DNA of 64,000 nt, taken from NCBI GenBank assembly GCA_965262355.1, contig OZ253534.1, positions 1,280,845 through 1,344,844 of the forward strand. Direction: 5' to 3'. The stretch comes from Candidatus Multivorans sp. Lineage in GTDB: Bacteria > Acidobacteriota > Thermoanaerobaculia > Multivoradales > Multivoraceae. Of this stretch, positions 18,485 through 37,947 are shown piece by piece (positions within the stretch are counted from its first letter, which is position 1; each line of letters opens with the position of its first letter). Both the position numbers and the translations under genes were made by a program. Below the pieces are notes generated by a model. The model saw only the letters and a program-made list of their open reading frames with translations, made no database searches and was not told where the DNA came from.

Positions 18485-18518
18485 GGAGACTGCGCTCGTG
18501 CAGTGGTAGCTTTTGCCC

Positions 18519-19415: not shown

Positions 19416-19485
19416 AGAAGCCAATCGGCGGACCGGCAGTGACGACGCTGCGCTCCTGGGCCACTCGTAGTAGCGTGTCAACGCG

Positions 19486-19710
19486 ATGCGGCCTCGACAC
19501 CCGAAGAAGGATGTCGAGGCTGCGCTGGCTGAAGCCGAGAAAGCAGGCTGGAACGTGACACTGACACCACGCGGCCACCGTTGGGGCGTGATGAAGTGCG
19601 GTGAAGCCAGCCGATTGGGCTGCCAAATCTCAGTCTCGTCTACTCCCAAGAACTCGGGACACCACGCCAAGCGGCTTCGACGCTATGTCAATCGCTGCCC
19701 ACACAAGTGA
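19486..19710 (+). CDS. HicA-like (YcfA family) small toxin candidate
   Basis: 74 aa. The pattern GW-V ... RGHRWGVMKCGE ... ISVSSTPKNSGHHAKRLRRYV parallels E. coli HicA (G-SNHLKLRFHGRRSVMPRHP ... LRKAILKQLG). First gene after the GC drop at the island edge. Confidence 0.4.
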   Translation: MRPRHPKKDVEAALAEAEKAGWNVTLTPRGHRWGVMKCGEASRLGCQISVSSTPKNSGHHAKRLRRYVNRCPHK

Positions 19711-19737
19711 CGCCAGCAGAGCCAGGAGCACAAGCCC

Positions 19738-20259
19738 ATGCCTATCCAGCAGTTCACCCTGATCGTCGAAGGTGCCGATCTGCAGTCCGAACCGGTCTTC
19801 GACGCGCTCTTTGAAGCCGGTTGCGACGATGCAACGGTCGCGCGGGTCGACGGAGTCCAGTACATCGACTTCGACCGCAATGCAGCCAGCCCGGGCGAGG
19901 CCATCCTCTCCGCGGTGCGAGACGTCAAAAGCGTCGCAGGCCTTCGAGTCACTCGCGTTGCCAACCTCAACCCAGTCTCCAAGGCCAACATCGCGGACCG
20001 AGAGCCGTGCACCCTCGACAGTGTCGGATTGTTCGTCACTTCAGCGCCCGGGCCGATCGGATTCCCTTCGCCAGTAATCGACCCGCACAGCCCGTATCGA
20101 CTGGCGCCCTGGTCCGACCTCGGACAGCTCTCCCAACCCGGCTCGGCGAACAAGCAGCGGAACCCCCTCCCCTCTTCCCCGCAGTCAACCCAAAGTTGGA
20201 ACTTCGTCGCCATTAGCACGGAATCCCTACGACCCGCAGGGACAGTCTTCGGGCTCTAA
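19738..20259 (+). CDS. hypothetical protein; possible cognate antitoxin, but only weakly HicB-like and without a recognisable DNA-binding C-terminus
   Basis: Immediately downstream of the HicA-like ORF (27-nt gap). Only the first ~100 aa look protein-like; the 3' extent is uncertain. Confidence 0.3.
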   Translation: MPIQQFTLIVEGADLQSEPVFDALFEAGCDDATVARVDGVQYIDFDRNAASPGEAILSAVRDVKSVAGLRVTRVANLNPVSKANIADREPCTLDSVGLFVTSAPGPIGFPSPVIDPHSPYRLAPWSDLGQLSQPGSANKQRNPLPSSPQSTQSWNFVAISTESLRPAGTVFGL

Positions 20260-20370
20260 CCGGCCGGTCGTGAGGTCAACCGGGGAACAGCAAACCTCTT
20301 GAGCGTCACGCTAGAGCAGCGGTAGATAGTCCGTCTTCGCCAAGCCGACCCACCGAACCCTAACTCCGAG

Positions 20371-23300
20371 ATGAAACGCCCATCCCACTCGACTGAGAAG
20401 GCCGTCTTCGCCCTGAGCGGAAACCAATGCGCCTATCCCGACTGCACACAACGTATCACGCACCGGCCAGCGCCTTTCGCCGACACGACTGTCGTTGGCG
20501 AGGTGTGTCACATACAAGGAAAGAAGCCTGGAAGTCCCCGGTGGAACCCGAAAATCACCCCCGCACAAATCCACAACATTGGCAACCTGATACTCCTCTG
20601 CCCGAATCACCACACAGTCGTGGACGACCAACCCGAGGTCTACCCTACCCACGTTCTGCACCGATGGAAGAAGGACCACGAAAGGAAGTTCTTCGCGACT
20701 CAGATCGAGACGATCGACCACAGCCCCTATGCCACCGCCGCCCCACGCTTCCCGACGTCACTCGTAGACAAGGAGATCGAACGGGAGCTTGAGGTCATCA
20801 GAAAGGGCCGTCTCTTCCCGGACTTCGACACCTCTCAACGCTGCCTGCAACTCGGCTTGGCCCTATCCAATGGCGAGTACGCAGGTGCAGCCACAGCAGT
20901 ACGCTGCCGAACACTGGCCTGGTGTGCCCGGCTCCTGACGCGGACCGACGAGTCGGACACCGCCAAGGAGTATCTCCGACAAGCGAAGCGACTGGGTGCT
21001 GAAAACGAAGTCGCGATCGCCAGCGCCTTGGCGAACTCCCACGAGGGCAACCATCGAGCAGCCCTCTACGTCCTGGACCGCCTCGACTCCCGGATGGCAA
21101 GGTCCGCTGCTCTCGTAGTAGCGGCCGATCAAGACGGACCGGCAGGAGCCTTGCGATGGACAAGCGACGCCGGAATCGTGGCCGCCGATCTGGATCCAGA
21201 CGGAAAGTTCCTCCTTCTCGCTTGGTTCCTTGAGCTCGGCGACTGGCATGCGGCGTTCTCAACACTTGAGGCCGTAACCGACGAGGACCGCTCAATCGCG
21301 CCTGCCATCAGTCGGCTCACAGCTCTAGCGCATCTCCTCCAGGCTGTCCCGGCGGAGTTTCGCGCGACCGTAGCCCAGAACGTACCGTTCTTCGCGTCGG
21401 ACTTTCCCCTTGCCACAGACAGGAAAGCGCTTCGGTCGCGCAGCAGAGCCCGGCGTCACGTCCGCGACGCCGCTAGGGCTGCACGAGACCTCGGCTGCTT
21501 TCTGACTGCGGAGACCTGCGAAGAGTACGCCTTGTGGCTCGAGCTTCTGGACCCGACTCACAGGCACGAGGCACGGGTGGACCTGGAAATGAAACTCCAG
21601 GACCTTGGGATGCACCTCCACTTGGTCTATCTGGGCCTACAGTTTGGCGTTCAACTCGATCTGTCTGCAATCGAGCAGGAGATTCGACACCAAGTCTCAA
21701 GGAAGGGCGGCAACACGCCAAGCACCGCGACAGCCCGGCTGGCGATAGCCACGGTGCAAGAAACACCCGAAGCGGTCGCGGAGTACGTAGCTCAGCATCG
21801 GTCAGAACTCGTCGACCACTTCGACGAGAAGTTGCTCCGGTCACTCGAGATCGATGCTCTTTCACGAGCCGGCCGCCTAGATGAGGCGCGGTCTAGCCTG
21901 CATAAGCTCGTGCGAGACGGAATCGCCGGCGCCGAAGAGGACCGGCTTCGCGATGTGATCGCCAGAGCCGAAGGCAACGACACAACGGCTTCGGCGAGGC
22001 GACGGTTTGAGGAGACCGACTCGCTGCCCGATCTCATCAACCTCGTCGAAGAGCTCGCCACCCAAGATGCACCCTCGGAAGTCCTCAAGTACGGCGAACT
22101 TCTCTTCCAAAGAACTCGTTCAAAAGAACATGCCGAACTCGTCGCCGACGCGTTGGTTCGAGTCCAGGACTACCACGGCCTCGCAGACTTCCTGGACGCC
22201 AACAGAGACCAGGTCGAGCGATCCGAAGCGCTGCAACTCTGTTCCTCCTGGTCTCTGTTCTGGCAGGGCTCTTTGCTTGAGGCTCGGAAGTCTCTGGAGA
22301 GCTTTGTCGGCAGCCATGATCAGTCGAACTATCGCAACCTACAGGTCCACTTGGCCGTCTCCCTGGGTGACTGGGAATCAGCATCGATGATTGTCGAGTC
22401 GGAGTACCAAGCTCGGGAACGGAGAAGCGGGTGGGAACTAGTGAGAGCCGCCCAACTGGCTGCCGAGCTGGGATTCCCGCGCGCGAAGGAGCTGACGTTG
22501 GCGGCAGCGGAGAAGGCCGAAGATGACGCAGGATTCTTCGCGGCTCTCTACTTGCTGACGGTCAAGGGAGGTTGGGACAACGAGCCAGATGCTGTAGCCT
22601 GGCTCCACCGGGCAGTCGAACTCTCGGGTCCGGATGGCCCCTTTCAGCAGATACGTCTCGAGACTCTCATGAGTGAGAGCCCAAAGTGGCGCAAAGGCCG
22701 GGTCAGCGTACTGGAGAAACTGGACCGAGGCGAGATTCCGGCTTTCCTGGCCGCCGAGTACCTCTACAGCTCCCTCTCAAACCTGATGCTGCGCCCGGCT
22801 CTGGCCAATGAGTCGGAGGACGACCCGCGCCGCAGGCGCTGCGTTCCGGCATACAGCGGCAAACGCCCACAAGTGCCCTGTAAACCGGGAAGCCAGGCTT
22901 GCTTTGACGGAACGGCACTTCTCACACTGGGCTTTTTGGATTTGCTCGACCAAGCTCTGGACGTTTTCGACACGATCTACGTTCCGCACTCCACACTCAC
23001 TTGGCTCTTGCGCGAGAAGACAGGAGCGTCTTTCCATCAGCCGAGTCAGGTAGAGGACGCGTGTCTGGTACACGACTTGCTCGAGGATGGGACGATCTCA
23101 GTCGTCCAGCCAACCGTCTCGCCGAACGTCAAACTGGCTTCCGACGTAGGGCACGAACTAGCCATGCTGATTGCCGAGGCCGGGACGGACGACCCGGCCG
23201 GCAGTCAGCGGCTGGTCGTTCGGCCCTTTCCGGTGTATCGCATCGGATCCCTGATGGATGACGTAGTCGATCTTACGGCGCACCGTCGCGTTCTCACGAG

Positions 23301-24456
23301 TTGCCAGGCAATCGTCCAGAGTCTGGAGCGGCAAGGTCTCTTGACCGAAGGCCAGTACGAAGCCGCAGTCTCGTATCTGCGCCTACAAGAGAAACCCTGG
23401 CCCGAACAGCTCGAGATCAGCACGCCCGCCGTCCTTTACCTAGACGGCCTAGCCATGACCTACTTCCTTCGGCTCGGCCTGCTTGGAGTTCTGCGGTCAG
23501 GCGGCCTCAAAGTCTACGTCCCTCCCGACACAGTTTCCGAGATGAACGAACTGCGTTCATATGAACGCACATCCGATGAAGTGACGGCGATCCTAGAACG
23601 CATCCGAATCGCTGTCAGGTCCCGGATCGAATCAGGACGCGTACACATCGGACCTGTCCAGCCTCCTGAGTCATCCGATGAAGAGTCGCACGTGCGGCAT
23701 CCAACCATGGAAGTCGTGGCCTTGGCCGACCGTTCGGATGTCATCGTGTCCGATGATCGTTTCCTCAATGGCTACCCTGAGATCGGCCAGGGCGACGGTT
23801 CCGCACCCACCGCCACGACACTCGATCTTCTGGACACTCTGGCAGCGGCCGGTGCGATCTCGGAAGCGGACCGGCGACGCCATAGGACCCGGCTTCGCCG
23901 CGCCGGGTATCTCTTCGTGTCGGTCGAGAAAGACGAACTCCTCTCTCACCTGCTGAAAGCGACAATCCTGAACGAACGCCTCGTGGAAACGGCAGAACTC
24001 AAGGCCGTGCGGGAGAGCGTTCTCGTCGCGCGGATGGGCAGCCAGCTTCAAGTTCCCGACGAATCACAGTGGCTTACAGACACGATCGGCGCATTCGTCG
24101 CCGCCTTGAAGGACTTGTGGCGAGGTGAACCCGATGTCTCTGGTGCGCGACTGCGGTCGGACTGGATCCTGGAGCAGATTGATCTCCGAGGTTGGACCCA
24201 CCGGCTACCTCCGGACGGCTCCAGTCGGACCATGGACGGCGTCCGGGCCGAGCAAGTGATCCAACTCGTGCTGGCGCCTCCAGAGGCCTCAGCGACCGTG
24301 AGCGGACGCTACTGGGATTGGGTCGAGGAGCGAGTGCTGAAGCCGATTCAGGCGACTGAACCGGCCCTGTACTCTTGGCTCGCCGAGCAGTTCCTGCTCA
24401 CCGTCTCGCGGGTGGCAGACAAGGCTGCTGAGAACGCGGAACCTGACGATGACTAA
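20371..24456 (+). CDS. 1361-aa multidomain protein: N-terminal HNH nuclease, long TPR-like helical region, tandem PIN-like motifs near the C-terminus
   Basis: HNH signature C-x2-C ... GEVCHI ... N ... LLCPNHH within residues 1-110. No Walker A motif found. Two psi-x-psi-P-x2-T-psi-x-E segments (IYVPHSTLTWLLRE, VYVPPDTVSEMNE) and a PIN C-terminal-like DRSDVIVSDDRFLN. Lower GC than flanks. Confidence 0.7.
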   Translation: MKRPSHSTEKAVFALSGNQCAYPDCTQRITHRPAPFADTTVVGEVCHIQGKKPGSPRWNPKITPAQIHNIGNLILLCPNHHTVVDDQPEVYPTHVLHRWKKDHERKFFATQIETIDHSPYATAAPRFPTSLVDKEIERELEVIRKGRLFPDFDTSQRCLQLGLALSNGEYAGAATAVRCRTLAWCARLLTRTDESDTAKEYLRQAKRLGAENEVAIASALANSHEGNHRAALYVLDRLDSRMARSAALVVAADQDGPAGALRWTSDAGIVAADLDPDGKFLLLAWFLELGDWHAAFSTLEAVTDEDRSIAPAISRLTALAHLLQAVPAEFRATVAQNVPFFASDFPLATDRKALRSRSRARRHVRDAARAARDLGCFLTAETCEEYALWLELLDPTHRHEARVDLEMKLQDLGMHLHLVYLGLQFGVQLDLSAIEQEIRHQVSRKGGNTPSTATARLAIATVQETPEAVAEYVAQHRSELVDHFDEKLLRSLEIDALSRAGRLDEARSSLHKLVRDGIAGAEEDRLRDVIARAEGNDTTASARRRFEETDSLPDLINLVEELATQDAPSEVLKYGELLFQRTRSKEHAELVADALVRVQDYHGLADFLDANRDQVERSEALQLCSSWSLFWQGSLLEARKSLESFVGSHDQSNYRNLQVHLAVSLGDWESASMIVESEYQARERRSGWELVRAAQLAAELGFPRAKELTLAAAEKAEDDAGFFAALYLLTVKGGWDNEPDAVAWLHRAVELSGPDGPFQQIRLETLMSESPKWRKGRVSVLEKLDRGEIPAFLAAEYLYSSLSNLMLRPALANESEDDPRRRRCVPAYSGKRPQVPCKPGSQACFDGTALLTLGFLDLLDQALDVFDTIYVPHSTLTWLLREKTGASFHQPSQVEDACLVHDLLEDGTISVVQPTVSPNVKLASDVGHELAMLIAEAGTDDPAGSQRLVVRPFPVYRIGSLMDDVVDLTAHRRVLTSCQAIVQSLERQGLLTEGQYEAAVSYLRLQEKPWPEQLEISTPAVLYLDGLAMTYFLRLGLLGVLRSGGLKVYVPPDTVSEMNELRSYERTSDEVTAILERIRIAVRSRIESGRVHIGPVQPPESSDEESHVRHPTMEVVALADRSDVIVSDDRFLNGYPEIGQGDGSAPTATTLDLLDTLAAAGAISEADRRRHRTRLRRAGYLFVSVEKDELLSHLLKATILNERLVETAELKAVRESVLVARMGSQLQVPDESQWLTDTIGAFVAALKDLWRGEPDVSGARLRSDWILEQIDLRGWTHRLPPDGSSRTMDGVRAEQVIQLVLAPPEASATVSGRYWDWVEERVLKPIQATEPALYSWLAEQFLLTVSRVADKAAENAEPDDD

Positions 24457-26407
24457 AGCGAGCGAGCTCCGAACCGCCACGGCCTTGCTTGCATTGGAGT
24501 GCATACCGCCGTCCTTGCGAGAGACCTTGGCGCGCCACGTCCGGATGCGCGACGACTATGGCATCCGACTCGACACCATCCTTGAGGTCGGTGATTCAGA
24601 CTTCAAGGCACCCGTTTCAGCCATCGTGCGTGGCGTCACAAGTGCCCTTAGTGGCACCCCAAGAACCACTCTTCGGGACACGGGCGGTAACGACTGGTCA
24701 ATCGAGCCCGACACCGACCGTGAACAACCCGCGCTTGTCTTCGCCCATGGCGAGCGTCACGTCGGTATGCATGCGTGGCTGACGCTGTCGCCGGACCGGA
24801 GCACAAGGCTTCGTTGCCTTGAGGCGCTCGCCACCGACGCCGGTCTGCCGCCGAAGGCCTGCTCCTCCTGGCGACGGGTCCTTGAAGAACGGAGCCTCAA
24901 CGGCGAGGAGGTGCCTGACTTCCTCTCGGACCTTCACAACACGCCACACGTTCAAGAGCAGTTTCTCGCCAACAGCATTGGCACCCCCGGGCTGAACTCG
25001 CAGTTGGCCGCGCCCCCATCTCGGACGTACTTTGAAAGACTCGTTGGCTCGCGAGGCGACAGCGCCTCGATCCAACGTCACGCTGCGGTCGGCGCCCGGG
25101 AACACCTTGCCGAATTGGCCGCTTGGCGGCCATATGAAGGCTTCTTGCAGAGTCTCTACATGGCCTCGCATCCTTGCCTTAGCGCGCAGATTCGGGTCGA
25201 CGGCATGAGCAGCGACGAGCTCGTACAAGCGTTCGAGTTTATCCTTCGCGTTGGAGACCAAGTGTCGCAGCTAGGCACCATCGAGGTGGGGTTCCGCGTG
25301 TCCGCTGACCGGCCCGAGGTGATTCCGGCGCTCAACAAGTTAGTGGATCTGATGCGCAGCGACGACACAACCGACAAAGAAGGTCGGTTTCGCACGTACT
25401 CGCTCCTGTACATGCTTGTTACGAGCGAGTTGTCGACACGGCAACAACTCGCTGGGGAACCTCCCTTCTACCGACGTCTGGCAGCCCTGGCGCAAGCCGG
25501 CGTGATTCAGCGGCAGATGGTAGTCGCAGGCATTACCCTGAAGGACTCCGCCCTTGAGTCGGTGACTGGAGAGTATCTTGTGCGGTCCGTCGTAGACCTT
25601 CGGCTGGAGCCACGGCGGCACCCAACCCTCGCCTTCGCAGAGCAATTGCAGGCCCACTTCTTGAGGCGCGTTTTGCGAGCCGCCATCCGGTATGAGAACG
25701 AGCTCTACACGGAACTCATGGGGGAACTTGGGCACCTGCTGGGTCCCGAGGGCCTCCGCCAAGCCGGCGAGGCATTCGTTCTATACACGCCTGGGCCGCT
25801 AGAGGAACCTGAGGAGAATCGAGCGCTACCAGCCGAGTTCGCCCAAGCAATCCAGGTACAGCTCGACACGGACGACGCCATCGAGCCCGCTGACTTCTCA
25901 GCGCTCAGGACCTCCACGACGAGCTTTCGTATTGGTAAAGCACAAGCAGATTTGGCGGCGGCCGCACTCACACGTTCCGCTAACCGGCTGGCGAACGTCA
26001 AGAGTCACTCCGAACTCTTCGCTACGCTGGCTGGCTTGGCGTCCGTTGCCGCGATAGCTCGGAGCGAGCGGCTTGCGGACACGCTTCGCGTCGTGGTGAG
26101 AAGGTACCGCCGGGACTCTGAGTTCCCGATCGCATTCTTCGAAGCAGCGCAGATCCTGCTGGTCGCGGCCGCGAGCAGGGCGGAACTAGGGAACTGGGCG
26201 GACTTCGTAGGGGATTGCCTGACGGAGTTGGCCTTTGGCGATCTGGCCGAGGGCGACGGTGAGATTCTCCACGGTTATGTGCGACGTCTCTGCGAAATCG
26301 TGCCCGAGCTATGGGCGACCTGCGGGAGCGCCGACGCAGCTCTCATGGCCTACAACGGTTCGATACCGAGCGATCAGGGCAGTCAGAAGCAAACGTCCGG
26401 CACCTGA
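24449..26407 (+). CDS. 652-aa all-helical partner protein of unknown function
   Basis: Start ATG overlaps the upstream stop (ATGACTAA, 8-nt overlap), indicating translational coupling. No catalytic motif recognised. Confidence 0.65.
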   Translation: MTKASELRTATALLALECIPPSLRETLARHVRMRDDYGIRLDTILEVGDSDFKAPVSAIVRGVTSALSGTPRTTLRDTGGNDWSIEPDTDREQPALVFAHGERHVGMHAWLTLSPDRSTRLRCLEALATDAGLPPKACSSWRRVLEERSLNGEEVPDFLSDLHNTPHVQEQFLANSIGTPGLNSQLAAPPSRTYFERLVGSRGDSASIQRHAAVGAREHLAELAAWRPYEGFLQSLYMASHPCLSAQIRVDGMSSDELVQAFEFILRVGDQVSQLGTIEVGFRVSADRPEVIPALNKLVDLMRSDDTTDKEGRFRTYSLLYMLVTSELSTRQQLAGEPPFYRRLAALAQAGVIQRQMVVAGITLKDSALESVTGEYLVRSVVDLRLEPRRHPTLAFAEQLQAHFLRRVLRAAIRYENELYTELMGELGHLLGPEGLRQAGEAFVLYTPGPLEEPEENRALPAEFAQAIQVQLDTDDAIEPADFSALRTSTTSFRIGKAQADLAAAALTRSANRLANVKSHSELFATLAGLASVAAIARSERLADTLRVVVRRYRRDSEFPIAFFEAAQILLVAAASRAELGNWADFVGDCLTELAFGDLAEGDGEILHGYVRRLCEIVPELWATCGSADAALMAYNGSIPSDQGSQKQTSGT

Positions 26408-26574
26408 CGTGCTGGGTGACTATCTGAGTCGCTCTTCGAAGTCTGCCCACGCCCCTCGGTAGTCCTCCTCCCGATCGCACCGGTCGAACGGGCACAGTAC
26501 TCGATACAACTCCGGCTCGGGTGCGTCGAGCATAGCCACGATGCCCTTTCTGGCCCGCACCCCAACAGGCACAA

Positions 26575-28038: not shown

Positions 28039-28179
28039 CCTTCCACCTCACAAGTTGGTCTGTTTGCGCCACTCCACCGGACGACATCGAATTGCACTGG
28101 TTCCGTCGGCTCCACTACCACTGCCCACCTTCCGACATGGCCAAGCCTCGAAATGACCGGCATGGAGACCGACTGGCAG

Positions 28180-32216: not shown

Positions 32217-32574
32217 GGTCGTATCAATGGAGCATCGAAGGCGGGAAGCGACCGAAACGTCGCCGCGTAGGCGAGAACGAGAGCATGGAGTCTAGGGCTT
32301 TGCGCGCCAGAAGCAAGCTAGCCGCCGGGTCGGCCGGGACGCCCACCGGCTCAACCCGGACGCCTTCCCCGTCGTGAGTCCGCGGTTCACCGGTTCCGAT
32401 TGAGCGGAGCCCAGGAGGACGCCATCCGGGGATCTGCGTCGGCCTCAATCGCTTGTGTTTAGCAAGCATTCATGCTAGATTCCTTACCTTCGACGGAGGC
32501 CCCGAACGGCCGGTTTCGCGGCCTCCGACACCTGCCAATCGGACCGTCAGGTCCCAGCACTGGGTGGCAACCAA

Positions 32575-34014
32575 ATGATTGACAAACAAACCGGCATGAG
32601 CAGCAAGGAGCGCATGGGCGAGGAGATCGCCGCGCTCGCTGCGCGCATCGATGCGGCGACTTACGAACTGCTCGTCCTGATCCGCAAGTTCGATGAAGAG
32701 GAAGGCTGGAACCGCGGCTTTCTCACTTGCGCCCACTGGCTGACCTGGCGGATCGGGCTGGCGCCCGGCGCGGCCCGTGAGCGGGTGCGAGTCGCCCGAG
32801 CCCTAGGCGACCTGCCCTTGATGAGTAAGGCCATGAGACGCGGCGAGCTCTCCTACTCCAAGGTGAGAGCGCTCACCCGCATCGCCACGCCGGACACCGA
32901 GCAGTCGCTGGTTGACTTGGGCAGGGCCGGAACCGCCGCGCAAGTCGAGCAAGTGGTGAGAAGCTGGCGGCGGATCGACCGCACAATCGAGGCCCACGAC
33001 GACGAGCTGCGCGACGCATCCAGCCATGTGACGACCCACATCGACGAGAACGGCATGTTCGTGATCCGCGGTTGTCTGGCGCCGGAGGCGGGCGAGGTCC
33101 TGATGAAGGCACTCGATGCGGCGAGCGACAAGCTCTACGCAGAGCAGCAGGAAGACAAACCGCCAGTCGGAAAAGTGCGCGCCGACGCTCTTGCTCTGGT
33201 TGCCGAGAGCGCGCTCAAGGGCGGACTCGATCCGGGGTCCAGCGGCGACCGCTATCAGGTCGTGGTTCATGCGAACGGGGAAGAGCTGACGGCGCAGGAG
33301 AGCGCCACGGCTGACAACCGGACTCACGTTCCCGCGGGAACGTCTCGGGCACGCGTTCCCGCGGGAACGTCCCCGTTCCCAGGAGCTGTCAACGGCGCCT
33401 GGCTCGGGACCTCCCATGTCCCTGTTTCCGCGGAAACAGCCCGGAGGATCGCCTGCGACGCCGGCAGAGTCTCGATGACCCACCGGGACGGCCAGATCCT
33501 TAGCGTTGGCCGCAAGACCCGCACGATCCCGCCGCCGATCCGGCGGGCCCTGGAGTTCCGCGACCAGGGTTGCCGCTTCCCCGGCTGCACATCGGAGCAC
33601 TGCGACGCTCACCACATCGTCCACTGGGCCGACGGCGGCGAAACGAAGCTCTCCAACCTCGTGCTCCTCTGCCGCCGACACCACCGCCTGCTTCACGAAG
33701 GCGGCTTCAGCGTCAGGATGAACGAGGCACGCGCCGTTCAGTTCCTTGACAAACGTGATCGGCCGCTGGAGCGCAGCCCCGCGCCGCCACCTGTTGGCTG
33801 CCCGCGAGCTGATCCGCCACCTGGAGGACGCCGGCATTCTGGTCACCGGCAAGGAATCGATGCCCGCTTGGGACGGCACACCGATGGACCTGCCTTACGT
33901 CATGGAGTGCCTGTGGCGGCCGCCACCGCATCTCGAAGCAGCGGTCGCCCGGGAACGAAACACATCGCACGCCGCGTAGGGGCCAACGGCTCGGAACGGT
34001 GCTCGCTCCACTAG
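32575..34014 (+). CDS. DUF222 + HNH endonuclease (13E12-repeat-family type)
   Basis: N-terminal DUF222-like helical region. C-terminal HNH (CRFPGCTSEHCDAHHIVHWADGGETKLSNLVLLCRRHHRLLHEGG). The real stop is probably near 33.78 kb; the Arg-rich tail to 34014 looks like read-through. Confidence 0.8.
   Translation: MIDKQTGMSSKERMGEEIAALAARIDAATYELLVLIRKFDEEEGWNRGFLTCAHWLTWRIGLAPGAARERVRVARALGDLPLMSKAMRRGELSYSKVRALTRIATPDTEQSLVDLGRAGTAAQVEQVVRSWRRIDRTIEAHDDELRDASSHVTTHIDENGMFVIRGCLAPEAGEVLMKALDAASDKLYAEQQEDKPPVGKVRADALALVAESALKGGLDPGSSGDRYQVVVHANGEELTAQESATADNRTHVPAGTSRARVPAGTSPFPGAVNGAWLGTSHVPVSAETARRIACDAGRVSMTHRDGQILSVGRKTRTIPPPIRRALEFRDQGCRFPGCTSEHCDAHHIVHWADGGETKLSNLVLLCRRHHRLLHEGGFSVRMNEARAVQFLDKRDRPLERSPAPPPVGCPRADPPPGGRRHSGHRQGIDARLGRHTDGPALRHGVPVAAATASRSSGRPGTKHIARRVGANGSERCSLH
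33326..33379. repeat. two copies of an 18-bp perfect palindrome (A)CGTTCCCGCGGGAACG(T) 27 nt apart, plus a CGTTCCC half-site, inside the DUF222/HNH gene
   Basis: Read directly; encodes the repeated peptide HVPAGTSRARVPAGTS in the inter-domain linker. Confidence 0.6.
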
Positions 34015-34037
34015 CGGGATAGCGTGGCAGGAGCGAC

Positions 34038-34595
34038 ATGGACGAGACGGCGGCGCCCGCTCAGACGCGGTGGGAACAATGGGGAGTTCGGGTTCTCCGG
34101 TTCCCGCTGACCCGGATCGTCCTCTTTGTCGCTGGTATCGCCGCGGCCGTCGTGCTCCAGGGTCTGGCGGCCGCCGGGCTCAGCCTGTGGTTGGAAATCT
34201 CCTGGCTGCGCGTCGCGGTCGGAGTGGTCTTTCCCATCCTCGCCGTTCACTTCGCCTACCGTGGAATGACCCGTCTCCTGGAGCGACGGTCTGCCGCGGA
34301 ACTCTCCCTGAGCGGGGCACTGCGTGAAACCAGCGCGGGTGCTCTGGTCGGCGCCGCCTGCTTGACGTTGATCGTGGCGCTCATCGCGGCGCTTGGCTTC
34401 TACCAGGTGCAAGGAGCTCGGCAGCCTGGAGCCGCTCCTGTTGACCGCGTTCGCCATCGCCGCCGTGTCAAGGCTATCGCCGAGGAGGTCGCATCGTTTT
34501 CGCGGTGTGGTGTTCCGGATTCTCGAAGAGGGGCTCGGAACATGGCTGGCCCTCACCACGGCTGCGGCAGCGCTCTTACGGACTCGTACACCTGA
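34038..34595 (+). pseudogene. CPBP-family intramembrane protease (CAAX protease/Abi domain), copy 1, frame-disrupted
   Basis: The N-terminal TM region is intact. Downstream motifs (FRGVVFRILEEGLGTWLAL) fall in a different frame (ORF 34393..34878), and the FxxxH/HxxxN motifs are lost to indels. Confidence 0.5.
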
Positions 34596-34921
34596 GCGGA
34601 ATCCGAACGGCAGACCGTTTCCCGCACCGCCTTGGAAAACCGGCAGACCGGTTTCCCACAGCGCAGCGCTACTGCTACTGACTCAAGGGGACCGACGGAG
34701 CACAGACTCGCGTACACTCAACACGGCCGAGGTGGCTCACTTTCCAAACGGTGGCTCACTTTCCGAGCGTTGCCAACATTCTGGTCACCGGCAAGGAATC
34801 GAGCGCACACCGATGGACCTGTGTCATGGAGTGCCTGCCACCGCATCTCGGCGCCGAAACACATCGCACGCCGCGTAGGGGCCAACGGCTCGGAACGCTC
34901 CACTAGCGGGATAGCGTCGAC

Positions 34922-35769
34922 ATGGACGAGACGGCGGCGCCCGCTCAGACGCGGTGGGAACAATGGGGAGTTCGGGTTCTCCGGTTCCCGCTGACCCGGA
35001 TCGTCCTCTTTGTCGCTGGTATCGCCGCGGCCGTCGTGCTCCAGGGTCTGGCGGCCGCCGGGCTCAGCCTGTGGTTGGAAATCTCCTGGCTGCGCGTCGC
35101 GGTCGGAGTGGTCTTTCCCATCCTCGCCGTTCACTTCGCCTACCGTGGAATGACCCGTCTCCTGGAGCGACGGTCTGCCGCGAACTCTCCCTGAGCGGGG
35201 CACTGCGTGACCAGCGCGGGTGCTCTGGTCGCTTGACATGGCGCTCATCCGGCGCTTGGCTTCTACCAGGTCAAGGAGTCGGGCCTGGATGACCGCGTTC
35301 GATCGCCGCCGTGTCAGGCTATGCCGAGGAGGTGCTTTTTCGCGGTGTGGTGTTCCGGATTCTCGAAGAGGGGCTCGGAACATGGCTGGCCCTCACCATC
35401 TCGGCAGCGCTCTTTGGACTCGTACACCTGAGCAATCCGAACGCGACCCTCTACGGCGCCGCGGCGATCGGTATCGAAGCGGGCGTGCTGCTCGGCGCCG
35501 CCTACGTCCTGACCCGGCGACTATGGCTCGCGATCGGCATCCACTTCGGATGGAATTTCGTGGTGCGTATTCGGCGAATCTCTCCGGCATCCAGGTGCAA
35601 ACTTGAGTCCCCTGAGCGGACCCGACTTCCTCTCCGGCGGCGCTCTCGGGGTAGAGGGTTCCGTGTTCGCCATTGCCGTGTGCCTGCTGGTGAGCGTCGT
35701 CTTCCTGAGGCGGGCGCGGCTTCAGGGCCGGTTCATCCGGCCGTTCTGGCGGCGAGAAGCGACCCGTGA
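34922..35769 (+). pseudogene. CPBP-family intramembrane protease (CAAX protease/Abi domain), copy 2, frame-disrupted
   Basis: N-terminal 90 aa identical to copy 1. The catalytic half (EEVLFRG ... FGLVH ... HFGWN) is intact but in a different frame (ORF 35311..35769). Confidence 0.5.
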
Positions 35770-35947
35770 GTGCACCAGTCGGTGACAATGACCGGATTGG
35801 GAGCCAGCTACCGGTTCCATCTCTCTTCCGGCATTCGGGTCATCCTCGGTCTGGTGACGTTCCAGTTGGTGCTTCTGCTGGTTCTGGTGGCGCTTCAACC
35901 ACCCGCGGCGCGTGAGTCGTTCCCCCGGGGACCGGATGTCACCCCGA

Positions 35948-36640
35948 TCAAGCGGGAAGCGAACCCGAGAAGACGCGGGGTTCGAAGTCCGCCTCGTTGA
36001 CGATGCTGGCGCTGCTGCCGGTGGCACGGATGACGAACAGCCCTTGCCGCTCCGCGTACCTCGTTACCGAGCTGTCGCTCTGGAGATACGCCACCGCGCC
36101 GTAGATCCGATGTTCCCGGTACGCCGGGAACCACTCCGCGAACCGCGACAGCTTCTCCACGAAGCGGGTGACGTCTCGGGGCCTGAGTGTCGTCTTGACC
36201 TCGACGACGACAACTTCCGTGCCGTTCAAAGCGAGGATGTCGATCTCGAAGTGCTGTCCGTTCCGCCTCCCTTCGAATCTCTGCAAAGTCCCTTCCACCG
36301 CGATACCCCGCTCCTTCAGCAGGGGTACGAGGTCGCCCTCGACCAAGCTCTCCATCAACTTGCCCCACTGGGACGTGAACAGGCCTTCCGCCTTCTTGAG
36401 CCGCCGGTCCGTCTCCTGCATCTGGCGGTCGGTCTCCCTGAACCGCCGGTCAGCCTCCCTCGCCTGTTCCTTCAGCAGCCGGTCGGTCTCCTTCATGCCC
36501 TCTCTGACCTCGACCATCCTGGCATCGCTCTCCGCCATCAGGTCGGAAGTGTGCCGCAGAATCGCCCAGATCTCCTCCGGCGTACCGCGAGCGCCGCGGC
36601 TCTCTTCAGGTGCATTCCTCGTCGTCATCGTCTCCTCCAC
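35948..36640 (-). CDS. DUF3782-like protein: N-terminal coiled coil plus C-terminal PD-(D/E)xK nuclease-fold domain
   Basis: RETDRQMQETDRRLKK coiled coil. FEIDILALNGTEVVVVEVKTTL fits a D ... E-V-K restriction-endonuclease-like core. Confidence 0.55.
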   Translation of the reverse strand: MEETMTTRNAPEESRGARGTPEEIWAILRHTSDLMAESDARMVEVREGMKETDRLLKEQAREADRRFRETDRQMQETDRRLKKAEGLFTSQWGKLMESLVEGDLVPLLKERGIAVEGTLQRFEGRRNGQHFEIDILALNGTEVVVVEVKTTLRPRDVTRFVEKLSRFAEWFPAYREHRIYGAVAYLQSDSSVTRYAERQGLFVIRATGSSASIVNEADFEPRVFSGSLPA

Positions 36641-36789
36641 CGCAATCGGCGCCGCGAGAGGGTCCGCTCATGCTGGCAAGGTCGGGACCGCCCGTCGGCC
36701 GCTTACGCGCCGAACCGGGCGACGACGATGGTAACCCGGAACGCGGGGCGCACGAGTGTCGCCGGCGCCTTCCCTCCCGCCTTCTCCTC

Positions 36790-37947
36790 CTAGGTCTCCA
36801 CGCCCTCGTTCAAGATCCGCAGATACTCGCTGTAGACGTACACCCGGTTCCGGCTGAAGCCGGTGAGTTCGCGGACCGTACCTGCCTCCTCCAGGAGCTT
36901 CATCGCGGCGGAGGCGGTCGGGAACGAGAGGCCGGTGCGGTCGCACGTTGCCGGAATGGAGAGCAGCGGCCGCTGCCGTAGGGCTTCGTGGACCCGCAGT
37001 GCCGAACCGGCTCGCCGACCGGTGTTGGCCAGGCGTTCGCGGTCAGCGGTGAACCGTTCGGTGAGGCGCTGTGCCGTTCTCGCGGCATCTTCGGCGGTCT
37101 CCTGAACGCCTTGGAGGAAGAAGGCGAGCCAAGCCTCCCAATCACCGTCACGGCGCACGCGGTCGAGCAACTCGTAGTACTGGTCGCGGTGGCGCTTGAA
37201 GTAGACGCTGAGGTAGAGGAGCGGCTGGCTCAGCATCCCGGCTTCACACAACAGCAGGGTGATGAGCAGCCGGCCTACGCGGCCGTTGCCGTCGAGGAAG
37301 GGGTGGATCGTCTCGAACTGGACATGTGCGAGACCGGCTCGAACCAGGGTCGGCAACCAGTCGTCTTCAGCGTGCAGGAAGCGCTCGAGTTCAGCCATGC
37401 AGTCGGGCACGGCGAGGTGCGGCGGCGGCACGAAGACAGCGTTGCCCGGGCGGGTGCCGCCGATCCAGTTCTGGGAACGCCGAAACTGACCCGGTTCCTT
37501 GCTTACGCCGCGACCGGCAGACAGCAGGATGCCGTGCAGCTCGCGGATCAACCGGTTCGAGAGCGGAAAGTCCTCGCCGAGTCGCTTCAGGCCGTGTTCC
37601 AGGGCGTCGACACAGCGCGAAACTTCCGCCGCATCGGCGATCGGCACTCCCGGCGCCTGGTCGAGTTCGAACAGCAGGAGATCGGAGAGCGACGACTGAG
37701 TGCCCTCAATCTGGGAGGACAACACCGCCTCCTTGCGGACGTAGGAGTAGACGAAGAGCGTCGGCTCCAGGAGTTGATTCGCTCCCTCCAGCCGCCCAAG
37801 GGCGAGACTGGCGGCTTCCAGGGATCGCAGCAGGGGGCCTTCGAGGTTCAGCGGGGGTTGCGGCGGCAGGGGCGCTGGAATGAAGGCGCGCACCTGCTCG
37901 CCTCCTTCGGCGGTAACTTCATGGCGACCCGGCATTGGACGTTTCAT
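36790..37947 (-). CDS. Fic-family protein (Fic/DOC AMPylase fold) with C-terminal winged-helix
   Basis: Canonical Fic motif HPFLDGNGRVGR. Confidence 0.85.
   Translation of the reverse strand: MKRPMPGRHEVTAEGGEQVRAFIPAPLPPQPPLNLEGPLLRSLEAASLALGRLEGANQLLEPTLFVYSYVRKEAVLSSQIEGTQSSLSDLLLFELDQAPGVPIADAAEVSRCVDALEHGLKRLGEDFPLSNRLIRELHGILLSAGRGVSKEPGQFRRSQNWIGGTRPGNAVFVPPPHLAVPDCMAELERFLHAEDDWLPTLVRAGLAHVQFETIHPFLDGNGRVGRLLITLLLCEAGMLSQPLLYLSVYFKRHRDQYYELLDRVRRDGDWEAWLAFFLQGVQETAEDAARTAQRLTERFTADRERLANTGRRAGSALRVHEALRQRPLLSIPATCDRTGLSFPTASAAMKLLEEAGTVRELTGFSRNRVYVYSEYLRILNEGVET

What the first reader, a model, noticed from the sequence alone, without database searches (positions are those of the whole stretch)
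19486..37947. Lower-GC defence/accessory island inserted after the ThuA-like gene
GC drops from ~70% to ~52-60% starting at 19.5 kb. Gene content switches to toxin-antitoxin-like (HicA-like), HNH nucleases, HEPN (ApeA-like), type IIG RM, CPBP/Abi protease copies, DUF3782 nuclease and Fic. Many genes are degraded by frameshifts or duplications, which is typical of a fast-turnover island. No integrase, tRNA or att repeat marks the boundary, so the insertion mechanism is unclear.
Basis: partly seen in the sequence, partly recalled or inferred. Interest (0 to 1): 0.55.

Follow-up and report, generated by a model that had tools for sequence, protein, structure and literature searches.

The report
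Layered defence-gene hotspot between thuA and imuA
The low-GC stretch is real, but it is a long-standing variable "defence hotspot" between two conserved genes of an uncultured acidobacterium, holding an old decaying layer and a recently acquired 8.8 kb layer, which is a known and fairly ordinary kind of genome architecture.

Summary
GC falls right after thuA, in two tiers: 61% (19.4-28.2 kb) and 65% (28.2-38.1 kb) against 69% in the core. It does not fall to 52-60%.

Sixteen related Thermoanaerobaculia/"Ca. Multivorans" genomes show a variable interval between conserved anchors: thuA and, where the fetched loci reach it, imuA-imuB.

The 28.2-38.1 kb part holds type IIG RM, DUF222-HNH, CPBP, a PD-(D/E)xK nuclease and SoFic. 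Most of it sits at the same site in relatives, with divergence tracking the core. Here the RM has a 34-bp frameshifting deletion and both CPBP copies are broken.

The 19.4-28.2 kb part is strain-specific. Relatives carry other defence candidates there (PycTIR-like, HEC-01, PDC-S64, MNT).

Its cargo:
- a PDC-M06A/B-like pair
- a two-gene variant of the TPR-GreA/B-C-PIN system: a 1361-aa HNH-helical-HTH-PIN protein plus a 652-aa permuted-GreAB-C/solenoid partner, fused in some homologues
- an ApeA-HEPN gene

The four-gene unit recurs elsewhere, once at 98.5% identity.

No integrase, tRNA or att repeat exists, so exchange through conserved flanks is inferred. "HicA-like" is unproven by sequence and only weakly suggested by fold. 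This is a new member of a known kind.

The parts
18513..19415 (+). thuA (ThuA-family protein), the conserved left anchor of the hotspot
   Evidence: Pfam ThuA 2.5e-38. Found in all 16 related loci at 85-96% aa identity. DNA collinearity with every relative ends at 19402-19412.
19467..26505 (+). Strain-specific four-gene unit that recurs in other genomic contexts. GC 0.614.
   Evidence: Homology with L024 and L026, both unrelated contexts, starts at exactly 19467 and ends at 26407-26505. L025 is 98.5% identical over 19802-26492 but is followed by IS elements. No terminal repeats.
19486..19710 (+).
   Evidence: PADLOC PDC-M06A 4.8e-21. No Pfam, NCBIfam or PDB sequence hit. Conserved at 72-74% aa in L024 and L026, where no gene was called. 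Invariant C38, C46, C71 and H73. AF2 topology alpha-beta-beta-beta-alpha, pLDDT 80. HicA3 4p78_C appears only at rank 4, E = 2, TM 0.41-0.45.
19738..20259 (+). 173-aa PDC-M06B-like protein
   Evidence: PADLOC PDC-M06B 6.4e-12. No Pfam or PDB hit. N-terminal ~130 aa conserved in L024, L025 and L026.
20371..24456 (+). 1361-aa protein: N-terminal HNH effector, long helical (TPR-like) region, HTH, then a double PIN region
   Evidence: Pfam HTH_upst_double_PIN 2.5e-18, PIN-TPR-GreABC 8.2e-17, HNH_2 6e-4. PADLOC HNH effector models reach 9e-33 on residues 4-112. 138 homologues, mostly ~1360 aa. Invariant C20, C25, C46-H47, N72, C77, H80-H81, E882, E936, E1007 and D1128-D1129 across 25 sequences.
24449..26407 (+). 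652-aa partner: permuted GreA/B-C-like alpha/beta domain (~44-106) plus an all-helical solenoid (~110-640). Overlaps the upstream gene by 8 nt.
   Evidence: Pfam Permuted_GreAB-C 0.002, 18 bits, below the 27-bit cut-off, but most of the 120 listed homologues carry PF24388. About 20 homologues of the 1361-aa protein are ~2010-aa fusions of both genes. AF2 pLDDT 83, pTM 0.85. Foldseek gives only non-significant helical-repeat matches.
26423..26494 (-). Remnant: the last 24 codons of a large Eco57I-like gene that follows the unit in L024
   Evidence: tblastn of the L024 1658-aa protein, residues 1635-1658: 67% identity, E = 1e-4. DNA homology extends to 26505.
26575..28038 (-). ApeA-family HEPN protein (487 aa), strain-specific
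   Evidence: Pfam ApeA_NTD1 1e-17 and HEPN_Apea 7.7e-7, both above cut-off. PADLOC PDC-S58 3.5e-13. R405-x4-H motif. No homologue in any fetched locus.
28180..32216 (-). Type IIG restriction-modification pseudogene (Eco57I/MmeI-like), split by a 34-bp deletion at about 29077
   Evidence: Pfam Eco57I 2.6e-18. PADLOC REase_MTase_IIG/DrmMI up to 7e-84. Relatives have a single intact ORF of 1351-1420 aa. The deletion and frame change are mapped. The C-terminal ~300 aa are 66-79% identical to relatives, the N-terminal part 88-91%.
32575..34014 (+). DUF222-HNH endonuclease (479 aa)
   Evidence: Pfam DUF222 5.4e-24 and HNH 4e-7. Present at the same site in nine relatives at 79-93% nt identity.
33956..35769 (+). 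Tandem duplication (~885-bp unit) covering a CPBP/Rce1-like protease gene. Both copies are frameshifted.
   Evidence: Repeat families D1, D10 and D17. The copies are 89% identical with 65 gap positions. The intact 298-aa orthologue in L003 maps onto the window in pieces in different frames. Pfam Rce1-like 5.5e-18 on the 35311-35769 fragment.
35948..36640 (-). 230-aa PD-(D/E)xK (Hjc/NERD-like) nuclease with a coiled-coil N-terminus
   Evidence: Pfam Hjc 9.4e-6. PADLOC CARF_PDDEXK C-terminal region 3.7e-7. D133...E146-V-K148 motif. Absent in L003. Its 3' part is 99.1% identical to L001.
36790..37947 (-). SoFic-like Fic protein (385 aa)
   Evidence: PADLOC SoFic 1.2e-118, full length. Pfam Fic_N and Fic. 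Motif HPFLDGNGRVGR at residue 215. Present in L003, L007, L010, L011 and L014 at 80-82% nt identity.
38131..40591 (+). Right anchor: conserved imuA upstream block (38131-38205), imuA (38206-39039) and imuB (39029-40591)
   Evidence: Pfam RecA-like 6e-14 and IMS 8.5e-12. Collinearity with L007 and L010-L014 resumes at 38131-38134. The upstream block of about 45 bp is nearly invariant. GC 0.733.
40619..41767 (-). IS630-family element, copy 1 (body 40623-41759), inserted directly after imuB at a CTAG site
Evidence: Inverted repeat I1. DDE_3 transposase 1.2e-23. TA on both sides and ~20-bp terminal inverted repeats.
54573..55721 (+). IS630-family element, copy 2 (body 54581-55717). One internal mismatch to copy 1.
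   Evidence: It has its own CTAG/TA site and different flanks, so it is an independent insertion.

Best explanation
The interval between thuA and the imuA-imuB mutagenesis genes is a chromosomal variable region, a defence hotspot bounded by conserved genes. It was filled in layers, not by one insertion.

LAYER 1 (28.2-38.1 kb): type IIG RM, DUF222-HNH, CPBP protease, PD-(D/E)xK nuclease and SoFic. Most of this layer has been resident since before the related species diverged, and most of it is inherited together with the flanks. The PD-(D/E)xK nuclease is the exception: it is variable among relatives. In this genome part of the layer is decaying. The RM gene is frameshifted, and the CPBP gene is duplicated with both copies broken.

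LAYER 2 (19.4-28.2 kb): the slot next to thuA, which turns over between species. Here it holds three things:
(a) A PDC-M06A/B-like small-gene pair.
(b) A two-gene variant of the TPR-GreA/B-C-PIN conflict system. The 652-aa protein would supply the RNA-polymerase-docking GreA/B-C-like domain on a helical scaffold. The 1361-aa protein would supply PIN RNase modules and an N-terminal HNH DNase as the lethal back-up effector.
(c) An ApeA-type HEPN RNase.

HOW IT TURNS OVER. New cassettes most likely arrive by recombination that uses the conserved flanks, with some illegitimate joins. They do not arrive by site-specific integration.

SHOWN: the composition tiers, the breakpoints, the synteny, the domain content, the conserved catalytic residues, the gene fusions, and the recurrence of the unit in other contexts.

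INFERRED: the recombination route, RNA polymerase sensing, the nuclease activities, and any anti-phage phenotype.
For: ANCHORS. thuA is present in all 16 relatives. imuA-imuB is reached in seven of them (L007, L010-L014). The spacing between thuA and imuA ranges from about 2.7 kb to more than 10 kb.

BREAKPOINTS. They fall at gene ends: 19402, about 28200 and 38131.

TWO TIERS. The synteny classes match the two GC and tetranucleotide tiers.

CO-INHERITANCE OF LAYER 1. Identity of the shared block tracks the core. For L001 it is 90-93% against 93-96%. For L009 it is 81% against 81-88%.

DIFFERENT DEFENCE CANDIDATES IN THE SLOT. L003 has a PycTIR/CAP12-TIR protein. L005 has HEC-01A (2e-147). L016 has PDC-S64. 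L001 has MNT/PDC-S09. L008 and L009 have DUF4365-TPR.

THE UNIT MOVES. The four-gene unit occurs at another chromosomal site in L008's genome (L026), on a 35-kb contig among helicase and RM genes (L024), and at 98.5% nt identity next to IS elements (L025). In each case it is lower in GC than its surroundings.

NO SITE-SPECIFIC HALLMARKS. There is no integrase, tRNA, Rfam hit or boundary repeat above chance.

SCARS. A 24-codon remnant of a former neighbouring gene lies at 26423-26494. A 34-bp deletion sits at the point where type IIG identity to relatives changes. Only half of a palindrome survives upstream of imuA.

SYSTEM ASSIGNMENT. Pfam PIN-TPR-GreABC, HTH_upst_double_PIN and Permuted_GreAB-C match. 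About 20 of the 120 listed homologues are fusions of the two genes. HNH and PIN residues are invariant. The partner model shows a small alpha/beta domain plus a solenoid.

LITERATURE. The architecture and the proposed mechanism are described in PMC8195603. One experimentally tested member, Bab/Agp, is described in bioRxiv 10.1101/2024.11.07.622273. Defence hotspots flanked by core genes, with transfer through conserved flanks proposed as a possibility, are described in PMC10250203.
Against: - No recombination tract or donor has been identified, so the flank-homology route is inferred from absence of other marks.
- In L002 and L006 the 10 kb after thuA hold a sugar-utilisation cluster and imuA is not reached. 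The anchor pair is therefore not shown to be universal.
- Six of the closest loci end before imuA, so their right-hand ends are unseen.
- Several slot genes in relatives have no defence annotation, and some are metabolic (radical SAM, glyoxalase).
- The window's own GreAB-C hit is below Pfam's cut-off (18 against 27 bits).
- The helical region of the 1361-aa protein gave no TPR hit in this protein.
- PADLOC 'PDC' and 'HEC' models are candidates, not validated systems.
- There are no expression or phenotype data.
Confidence: 0.72

Rival explanations
1. One reading: one genomic island of about 18.5 kb (19486-37947) was inserted in a single event after thuA by an unknown mechanism.
For: The interval as a whole is lower in GC than the core and is full of defence-type genes. 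It lies between two core-like blocks.
Against: There are two distinct compositional tiers (0.611 and 0.653). The right half is shared at the same site with up to nine related species, at divergence tracking the core, while the left half is unique. Relatives carry different subsets: SoFic only in L007 and L010, DUF222-HNH plus CPBP only in L013, neither in L012.
Confidence: 0.07
2. The strain-specific 8.8 kb arrived by transposition, or on an IS-rich plasmid or integrative element, rather than by recombination through the conserved flanks. The hotspot pattern would then reflect repeated IS-mediated events.
For: The 98.5%-identical copy (L025) lies on a contig crowded with IS elements (DDE_Tnp_1, IS21 and IS3 types). 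The window itself has two nearly identical IS630 copies and an IS3 within 25 kb. L004 has a DDE transposase inside the hotspot. Constant-region homologues occur on three megaplasmids.
Against: There is no IS, terminal inverted repeat or target duplication at either edge of the unit or of the 8.8 kb block. The IS630 copies flank a different segment (40.6-55.7 kb), and each has its own CTAG/TA site. There are no phage hits.
Confidence: 0.2
3. Differential loss rather than gain: the ancestor carried a large accessory region after thuA, and the lineages kept different remnants.
For: Layer 1 genes are patchily distributed yet always in the same order. Decay is visible here as a frameshifted RM and broken CPBP copies. 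A gene remnant lies at 26423-26494.
Against: The slot cassettes of different species are unrelated to one another (clustering). The 19.4-28.2 kb block is compositionally the most foreign. A 98.5%-identical copy exists in a different context, which points to recent gain. Loss probably does explain part of layer 1.
Confidence: 0.12
4. Assembly artefact: the low-GC block is a chimeric join in a metagenome-assembled genome.
For: All related records are MAGs. The source genome could not be retrieved from the contig index.
Against: Both flanks are collinear with 16 independent assemblies. The identical 652-aa protein is recorded on a 5.44-Mb contig. The unit occurs independently in three other assemblies. 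The junctions fall at gene ends, not inside genes.
Confidence: 0.03

Closest known systems
Core defence hotspots (cDHS1/cDHS2 of Pseudomonas aeruginosa, PMC10250203; E. coli defence-island hotspots, PMC10121019)
   Same: Conserved flanking core genes. Highly variable, lower-GC content between them. Enrichment for defence systems. No membership of an obvious mobile-element class. Transfer via the conserved flanks is proposed there as a possibility.
   Different: Different phylum (uncultured Acidobacteriota, Thermoanaerobaculia) and different anchors (thuA and imuA-imuB). It is much smaller, about 3 to 19 kb in the intervals fully seen, against a median of 26 kb. Only 16 genomes were sampled. 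A second small variable slot sits inside the imuA-imuB...dnaE2 cassette.
TPR-GreA/B-C-PIN ('TGP') conflict system of Kaur et al. 2021 (PMC8195603); tested member Bab/Agp (bioRxiv 10.1101/2024.11.07.622273)
   Same: A variable N-terminal effector (HNH is one of those listed), a helical repeat region, a GreA/B-C-type domain and the family-specific PIN domain. It is found in defence neighbourhoods. The constant region recurs without the HNH head (plasmid hits start at residue ~130).
   Different: The domain order and packaging differ. Here an HTH and a double PIN follow the helical region. The GreAB-C domain is circularly permuted and lies on a separate 652-aa solenoid protein, which is fused C-terminally in about one in six homologues. 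There is no amyloid or Bell partner. In acidobacterial copies a PDC-M06A/B-like pair travels with it. Pfam already models this variant (PF24407, PF24388), so it has been catalogued, though I found no experimental study of it.
HicAB type II toxin-antitoxin
   Same: A small (~74 aa) first gene with predicted alpha-beta-beta-beta-alpha topology, followed by a larger second gene. The gene order is hicA-hicB-like.
   Different: There is no HicA or HicB sequence-model hit at any threshold tried. The structural match to HicA3 is not significant. An invariant Cys3-His set suggests a zinc site, which I do not know to be typical of HicA. The second protein has no detectable HicB or DNA-binding domain.
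MmeI/Eco57I-type type IIG restriction-modification enzymes
   Same: Single-polypeptide nuclease, methyltransferase and target-recognition architecture. Hypervariable C-terminal part.
   Different: Inactivated here by a 34-bp frameshifting deletion. Orthologues in five relatives are intact.

Membership tests
Integrase-mediated genomic island | Integrase or recombinase gene at one end | tested here: not met
   Every ORF that fills 19.4-38.1 kb was scanned and none is a recombinase. No unassigned space is large enough for one.
Integrase-mediated genomic island | tRNA/tmRNA target and flanking direct (att) repeats | tested here: not met
   No tRNA or tmRNA in 64 kb and no Rfam hit. The longest boundary repeats are 6-9 nt, against a shuffled maximum of 10-13.
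Integrase-mediated genomic island | Atypical composition and patchy distribution | tested here: met
   GC 0.611 and 0.653 against 0.691 in the core. Content is absent or different in relatives.
Defence hotspot flanked by core genes (cDHS type) | Same conserved flanking genes across related genomes | tested here: met
   thuA in 16 of 16 relatives. imuA-imuB in the 7 loci that reach it. Not reached in L002 and L006 within 10 kb, and unseen in six loci that end earlier.
Defence hotspot flanked by core genes (cDHS type) | Content differs between closely related genomes | tested here: met
   Slot proteins from different species mostly fail to cluster with one another. The interval length varies from about 2.7 kb to more than 10 kb.
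Defence hotspot flanked by core genes (cDHS type) | Enrichment for defence systems | tested here: inconclusive
   There are many PADLOC and Pfam defence hits in the window and in the slots of L001, L003, L005 and L016. No genome-wide background was available to compute an enrichment, and some relatives carry metabolic genes there.
TPR-GreA/B-C-PIN system (Kaur et al. 2021) | Family-specific PIN domain | tested here: met
   PF20698 at 62.2 bits against a 27.8-bit cut-off. Acidic residues E882, E936, E1007 and D1128-D1129 are invariant.
TPR-GreA/B-C-PIN system (Kaur et al. 2021) | GreA/B-C-terminal domain | tested here: inconclusive
   The window protein scores 18.2 bits against a 27-bit cut-off. 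Most homologues carry PF24388, and the model has a small alpha/beta domain at that position. No significant structural match to GreA/B was obtained.
TPR-GreA/B-C-PIN system (Kaur et al. 2021) | Variable N-terminal effector domain | tested here: met
   HNH head with an invariant Cys/His/Asn signature. Plasmid homologues match only from residue ~130 onward.
TPR-GreA/B-C-PIN system (Kaur et al. 2021) | All domains in one polypeptide in the order TPR, GreA/B-C, PIN; mostly a standalone gene | tested here: not met
   Two overlapping genes, with the GreAB-C-like domain on the second one after the PINs. Fused in only about 20 of the 120 listed homologues.
TPR-GreA/B-C-PIN system (Kaur et al. 2021) | Binds RNA polymerase and cleaves transcripts; abortive-infection phenotype | not testable with these tools
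   A hypothesis in PMC8195603. Only Bab/Agp has phenotype data (bioRxiv 10.1101/2024.11.07.622273).
HicAB toxin-antitoxin | HicA toxin sequence family | tested here: not met
   No HicA hit in Pfam at E up to 1, in NCBIfam, or in a PDB profile search at E up to 10.
HicAB toxin-antitoxin | dsRBD-like HicA fold | tested here: inconclusive
   AF2 topology alpha-beta-beta-beta-alpha, pLDDT 80. HicA3 at rank 4, E = 2, TM 0.41-0.45, not significant.
HicAB toxin-antitoxin | HicB antitoxin partner | tested here: not met
   The 173-aa protein has no Pfam, NCBIfam or PDB sequence hit. Its fold was not predicted.
PADLOC candidate system PDC-M06 | Adjacent A and B subunit genes | tested here: met
   A at 4.8e-21 and B at 6.4e-12, with the genes 27 nt apart. 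The system is itself only a candidate.
SoFic defence protein | Full-length match and Fic catalytic motif | tested here: met
   PADLOC SoFic 1.2e-118 over 355 of 361 model positions. Motif HPFLDGNGRVGR. The NCBIfam equivalog cut-off is not reached (150.8 against 550 bits).
Type IIG restriction-modification enzyme | One intact ORF with nuclease, methylase and target-recognition parts | tested here: not met
   The domains are present, but a 34-bp deletion splits the reading frame. Relatives have intact ORFs of 1351-1420 aa.
ApeA HEPN family | ApeA N-terminal domain plus HEPN domain with Rx4-6H | tested here: met
   Both Pfam models are above cut-off. R405SRLVH lies inside the HEPN region.

The most novel reading that the evidence does not exclude
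Two readings are not excluded.

1. The four co-travelling genes form one integrated four-component defence system. These are the 74-aa Cys3-His/HicA-like protein, its 173-aa partner, the HNH-PIN giant and the GreAB-C/solenoid protein. The small pair would act as a toxin-antitoxin-like trigger or regulator of an RNA-polymerase-sensing nuclease.

2. The placement of variable defence slots on both sides of imuA-imuB, and inside the imuAB...dnaE2 cassette, reflects a functional link between damage-induced mutagenesis and defence, for example shared induction.
Probability: 0.12. Interest if true: 0.55.

Novelty: new member of a known kind. Interest (0 to 1): 0.3.

Why it matters
The locus shows that the "hotspot flanked by core genes, without an integrase" way of organising defence genes also operates in an uncultured acidobacterial lineage. 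That organisation has so far been described mainly in Pseudomonas and E. coli.

It provides a well-bounded natural example of cassette turnover, with exact breakpoints, scars and a near-identical copy elsewhere.

It also flags a compact, apparently intact two-gene variant of the TPR-GreA/B-C-PIN system, plus a linked PDC-M06-like pair. These could be tested experimentally.

None of this overturns current understanding. Its main practical value is as an annotation correction: it is a hotspot in two layers, not a single island.

Tried and rejected
- HICA BY SEQUENCE. Pfam at E up to 1, NCBIfam and PDB profile searches gave nothing. Fold prediction gave a compatible topology but no significant match.
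- att-LIKE REPEATS. None at the edges of the unit, the strain-specific block or the whole interval exceeds shuffled expectation.
- TERMINAL REPEATS OF THE FOUR-GENE UNIT. None was found in alignments of its edges across four contexts.
- tRNA, tmRNA AND Rfam. No hits.
- COMPOSITE TRANSPOSON FORMED BY THE TWO IS630 COPIES. Rejected for this finding. They bracket 41.8-54.6 kb, not the island, and each has its own CTAG/TA site and unrelated flanks.
- LexA BOX (GTTC-N7-GTTC, recalled from memory for Acidobacterium) upstream of imuA. Absent. The two matches in the window are at chance level.
- PHAGE ORIGIN. There is no tblastn hit of the 1361-aa protein in 50,697 phage records.
- STRUCTURAL IDENTIFICATION OF THE 652-AA PARTNER. 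Only non-significant helical-repeat matches were found.
- RETRIEVING THE SOURCE GENOME BY EXACT PROTEIN LOOK-UP. This failed twice.
- 'DUF3782' LABEL FOR THE 230-AA NUCLEASE. Not reproduced.
- ONE WASTED LITERATURE SEARCH. The term 'TGP' was swamped by Toxoplasma papers.

Full report
OBSERVATION

Sliding-window composition confirms a drop in G+C that begins at the end of thuA (stop codon 19415). The drop has two tiers. Core sequence (1-19402 and 57041-64000) averages 0.691 in 500-bp windows (sd 0.024, minimum 0.642). The 19403-28198 stretch averages 0.611, every one of its windows is below the core minimum, and its tetranucleotide distance to the core is about double. The 28199-38130 stretch averages 0.653. 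Other low-GC stretches exist at 40.6-48.8 kb and 53.9-57.0 kb, so the window holds several accessory segments.

GENE CONTENT

I selected ORFs by third-position GC and scanned them against Pfam, PADLOC and NCBIfam. In order along the window:

- thuA (18513-19415).
- A 74-aa ORF (19486-19710) matching PADLOC candidate PDC-M06A (5e-21).
- A 173-aa PDC-M06B-like protein (19738-20259).
- A 1361-aa protein (20371-24456) with an HNH head, HTH_upst_double_PIN and PIN-TPR-GreABC domains.
- An overlapping 652-aa gene (24449-26407) with a sub-threshold Permuted_GreAB-C hit.
- An ApeA-HEPN protein (26575-28038, minus strand).
- A type IIG RM gene in two frames (28180-32216, minus strand).
- A DUF222-HNH protein (32575-34014).
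- Two broken CPBP/Rce1-like copies within a tandem duplication (33956-35769).
- A 230-aa PD-(D/E)xK nuclease (35948-36640, minus strand).
- A SoFic-like Fic protein (36790-37947, minus strand; PADLOC 1e-118).

Catalytic motifs are intact in SoFic, ApeA and the PD-(D/E)xK protein. Immediately to the right lie imuA (38206-39039) and imuB (39029-40591). The matching dnaE2 is at 50485-53880.

COMPARATIVE EVIDENCE

A scan of species-representative genomes with ThuA returned 16 loci at 85-96% identity. All are from Thermoanaerobaculia or "Candidatus Multivorans" MAGs, which places the window in the Acidobacteriota. Protein and DNA mapping gave four results.

1. Every relative is collinear with the window up to 19402-19412.

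2. Six relatives (L001, L003, L005, L008, L009, L016) resume collinearity at about 28200. They continue through the type IIG gene, DUF222-HNH and CPBP, and in L003 through SoFic. Their own, different 2.4-4.6 kb lies in between.

3. Other relatives carry subsets:
   - L007 and L010 have thuA, SoFic, a radical-SAM gene, then imuA.
   - L013 has thuA, part of DUF222-HNH, CPBP, then imuA.
   - L014 has thuA, DUF222-HNH, two unknown genes, SoFic, then imuA.
   - L012 has thuA, 2.7 kb, then imuA.

4. Collinearity on the right resumes at 38131-38134, where a promoter-proximal block of about 45 bp upstream of imuA is nearly invariant.

Identity of the shared block tracks that of the flanking core genes. 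For L001 it is 90-93% against 93-96%. For L009 it is 81% against 81-88%. The 28.2-38.1 kb layer is therefore a long-resident accessory layer, most of which is inherited with its neighbours, and only 19403-28198 is specific to this genome. In L002 and L006 the 10 kb after thuA encode a glycoside hydrolase and ABC transporter cluster and imuA is not reached. The anchor pair is thus not shown to be universal.

THE SLOT IS DEFENCE-RICH IN RELATIVES

The thuA-proximal slot of the closest relatives has low GC (0.58-0.63). Its proteins are mostly unrelated to one another. They include:

- an MNT-type nucleotidyltransferase pair in L001 (PDC-S09-like);
- a CBS protein plus a CAP12/Pycsar-type TIR effector in L003;
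- HEC-01A (2e-147) in L005;
- PDC-S64 in L016;
- a DUF4365-TPR protein in L008 and L009.

This is the pattern described for defence hotspots flanked by core genes in Pseudomonas (PMC10250203) and E. coli (PMC10121019). I could not compute a formal enrichment because no genome-wide background was available.

DECAY IN THE OLDER LAYER

Five relatives have an intact type IIG ORF of 1351-1420 aa. The window has a 34-bp deletion at about 29077 that shifts the frame. The C-terminal ~300 residues are only 66-79% identical to relatives, against 88-91% for the rest, and that pattern does not follow relatedness. This is consistent with swapping of the specificity region.

L003 has one intact 298-aa CPBP gene. 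The window has a tandem duplication with a unit of about 885 bp whose copies are 89% identical with many indels. Neither copy can be read through without frame changes.

The remaining genes look intact.

THE STRAIN-SPECIFIC LAYER

A search with the 1361-aa protein found 138 homologues, mostly about 1360 aa long. About 20 of the 120 listed are about 2010 aa and also carry the permuted GreAB-C domain. In those proteins the two window genes are fused. The 652-aa protein has its own family of about 640-650 aa, and most members pass the PF24388 cut-off.

Context look-ups show the same four genes (74 aa, about 175-190 aa, about 1350 aa, about 650 aa) in three other places:

- L024, a 35-kb contig, where they sit among a DEAD/MZB helicase, a UvrD helicase and a 1658-aa Eco57I-like gene.
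- L026, a different chromosomal site in the same genome as relative L008.
- L025, at 98.5% nucleotide identity, followed by IS elements instead of ApeA.

Homology with L024 and L026 begins at exactly 19467, about 20 bp upstream of the 74-aa start codon. It ends at 26407-26505. The 72 nt at 26423-26494 encode the last 24 residues of L024's Eco57I-like neighbour, which is a scar of a previous context. In every context the unit is lower in GC than its surroundings.

In distant homologues (Thalassospira, Paenibacillus, and a 6.3-Mb MAG where the pair sits inside a type I RM operon) only the two large genes, or their fusion, are conserved. The small pair is absent. The unit is therefore two two-gene modules that co-travel in Acidobacteriota. 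ApeA has no homologue in any fetched locus.

WHAT THE LARGE PAIR IS

Kaur et al. 2021 (PMC8195603) defined a conflict system with a variable N-terminal effector followed by a constant TPR, GreA/B-C and PIN region. HNH is among the 13 effectors they list. [quoted passage not shown] The window's version shares three features with that system:

- the family-specific PIN domain;
- an HNH head with an invariant Cys/His/Asn signature;
- conserved acidic residues in the PIN region.

It differs in packaging. An HTH and a second PIN-like region are present. The GreAB-C-like domain is permuted and carried by the separate 652-aa protein.

An AlphaFold2 model of that partner (pLDDT 83, pTM 0.85) shows a small alpha/beta domain at about 44-106 and a helical solenoid at about 110-640. 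It has no significant structural neighbour beyond generic repeat scaffolds, which suits a sensor or scaffold role rather than an enzyme.

Pfam already holds models for this variant, so it is catalogued. I found no experimental work on it.

Plasmid records contain the constant region, matching only from residue ~130 onward, on three megaplasmids. Phage records contain nothing.

THE SMALL PAIR AND THE HicA QUESTION

The 74-aa protein gives no HicA hit by any sequence method. Its family has invariant C38, C46, C71 and H73. Its predicted topology is alpha-beta-beta-beta-alpha (pLDDT 80). From my own knowledge, that is the HicA/dsRBD arrangement. The only HicA structure recovered (4p78_C) ranks fourth with E = 2 and TM 0.41-0.45. 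The HicA-like label is therefore possible but unproven. "PDC-M06A/B-like pair" is the supported description.

HOW THE LOCUS TURNS OVER

There is no integrase, tRNA, Rfam element or boundary repeat above chance. The breakpoints fall at the ends of conserved genes. Scars of illegitimate joins are visible in three places:

- the gene remnant at 26423-26494;
- the 34-bp deletion at the point where type IIG identity to relatives changes;
- a half-palindrome upstream of imuA, where three relatives have a full 12-bp-arm palindrome.

I infer that cassettes are exchanged by recombination through the conserved flanks. This route has been proposed for such hotspots (PMC10250203). It is an inference from the absence of other marks, not a demonstration.

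IS-mediated or plasmid-borne delivery remains a reasonable rival. The near-identical copy in L025 is embedded among IS elements, and the window itself carries active-looking IS630 and IS3 elements.

OUTSIDE THE INTERVAL

Two IS630-family copies sit at CTAG sites with TA on both sides. Their bodies are at 40623-41759 and 54581-55717, and they differ at one internal base. They are inverted relative to each other.

Copy 1, a PDC-S32-like 339-aa gene and an IS3 form a window-specific 3.4 kb inserted exactly between imuB and a conserved AAA-ATPase gene.

The imuB-to-dnaE2 spacer is itself variable among relatives. The mutagenesis cassette is thus flanked and interrupted by variable slots.

VERDICT

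The locus is best described as a layered defence hotspot bounded by conserved genes, not a single inserted island. This is a new member of a known kind. Its most testable component is an intact two-gene variant of the TPR-GreA/B-C-PIN system with a linked PDC-M06-like pair.

Noticed in passing
window 40619-41767 and 54573-55721: Two inverted copies of a 1137-bp IS630-family element. They differ at one internal base (41414). Each sits in a CTAG site with TA on both sides and has ~20-bp terminal inverted repeats. The near-identity suggests recent transposition.
   Followed up: yes
window 40622-48776: A second variable slot lies between imuB and the TPR-dnaE2 genes. The window has IS630, a 339-aa PDC-S32-like gene, IS3, an AAA ATPase, a 147-aa gene, a glyoxalase, an MNT(PDC-S09-like)/HEPN pair and a 551-aa Swt1-HEPN-like protein. 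L012 has only the 147-aa gene there.
   Followed up: partly
window 48572-50434: A 620-aa TPR protein with core-like GC3 sits between imuB and dnaE2 in the window and in every relative whose locus reaches that far (L010-L014). This may be a lineage-specific extra component of the imuA-imuB-dnaE2 cassette.
   Followed up: no
window 53895-56640 (minus strand): IS630 copy 2 appears to interrupt a low-GC gene. Two tandem ~149-aa repeats (…GWYWVNGDRNAAVAPLICE…) read straight into the IS from the right. The 214-aa ORF on the other side of the IS (weak Peptidase_M10 hit, E = 0.033) may be the C-terminal half of the same gene.
   Followed up: partly
window 56648-56744: An orphan 97-nt copy (93% identical) of an internal dnaE2 segment (53046-53142) lies 2.8 kb downstream of dnaE2. 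Its origin is unexplained.
   Followed up: partly
window 35821-36145 vs L001 20567-20891: The 3' part of the PD-(D/E)xK nuclease gene is 99.1% identical to L001, whereas neighbouring shared DNA is 88-94% identical. L003 lacks the gene altogether. This suggests a third small variable sub-slot between CPBP and SoFic, with recent exchange.
   Followed up: partly
window 38003-38074; L012, L013 and L014 upstream of imuA: Three relatives have a palindrome with 12-bp arms (GAACTTTGAATA-N10-TATTCAAAGTTC) upstream of the conserved imuA promoter block. The window keeps only the left half (38063-38074), plus a degenerate right-half-like stretch displaced upstream. It may be an operator or a terminator. 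No GTTC-N7-GTTC LexA box is present.
   Followed up: partly
L029 1-14098: In a 6.3-Mb MAG the two-gene HNH-PIN / GreAB-C pair is embedded inside a type I RM operon, between hsdS and an AAA_14 gene followed by hsdR. In Paenibacillus elgii (L028) the fused form lies between type I RM / AAA_15-21 genes and a Hachiman-like HamA-helicase pair.
   Followed up: no
L024 9132-9350; L026 9101-9322: The conserved 74-aa PDC-M06A-like ORF was not called as a gene in either locus's annotation, although it is 72-74% identical to the window's copy. Small genes of this family are probably under-annotated.
   Followed up: yes
L025 6692-7966: In the 98.5%-identical copy of the unit, a DDE_Tnp_1 IS element is inserted about 85 bp after the 652-aa gene. 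The window sequence 26483-26492 appears on both sides of the insertion, which looks like a ~10-bp target duplication.
   Followed up: partly
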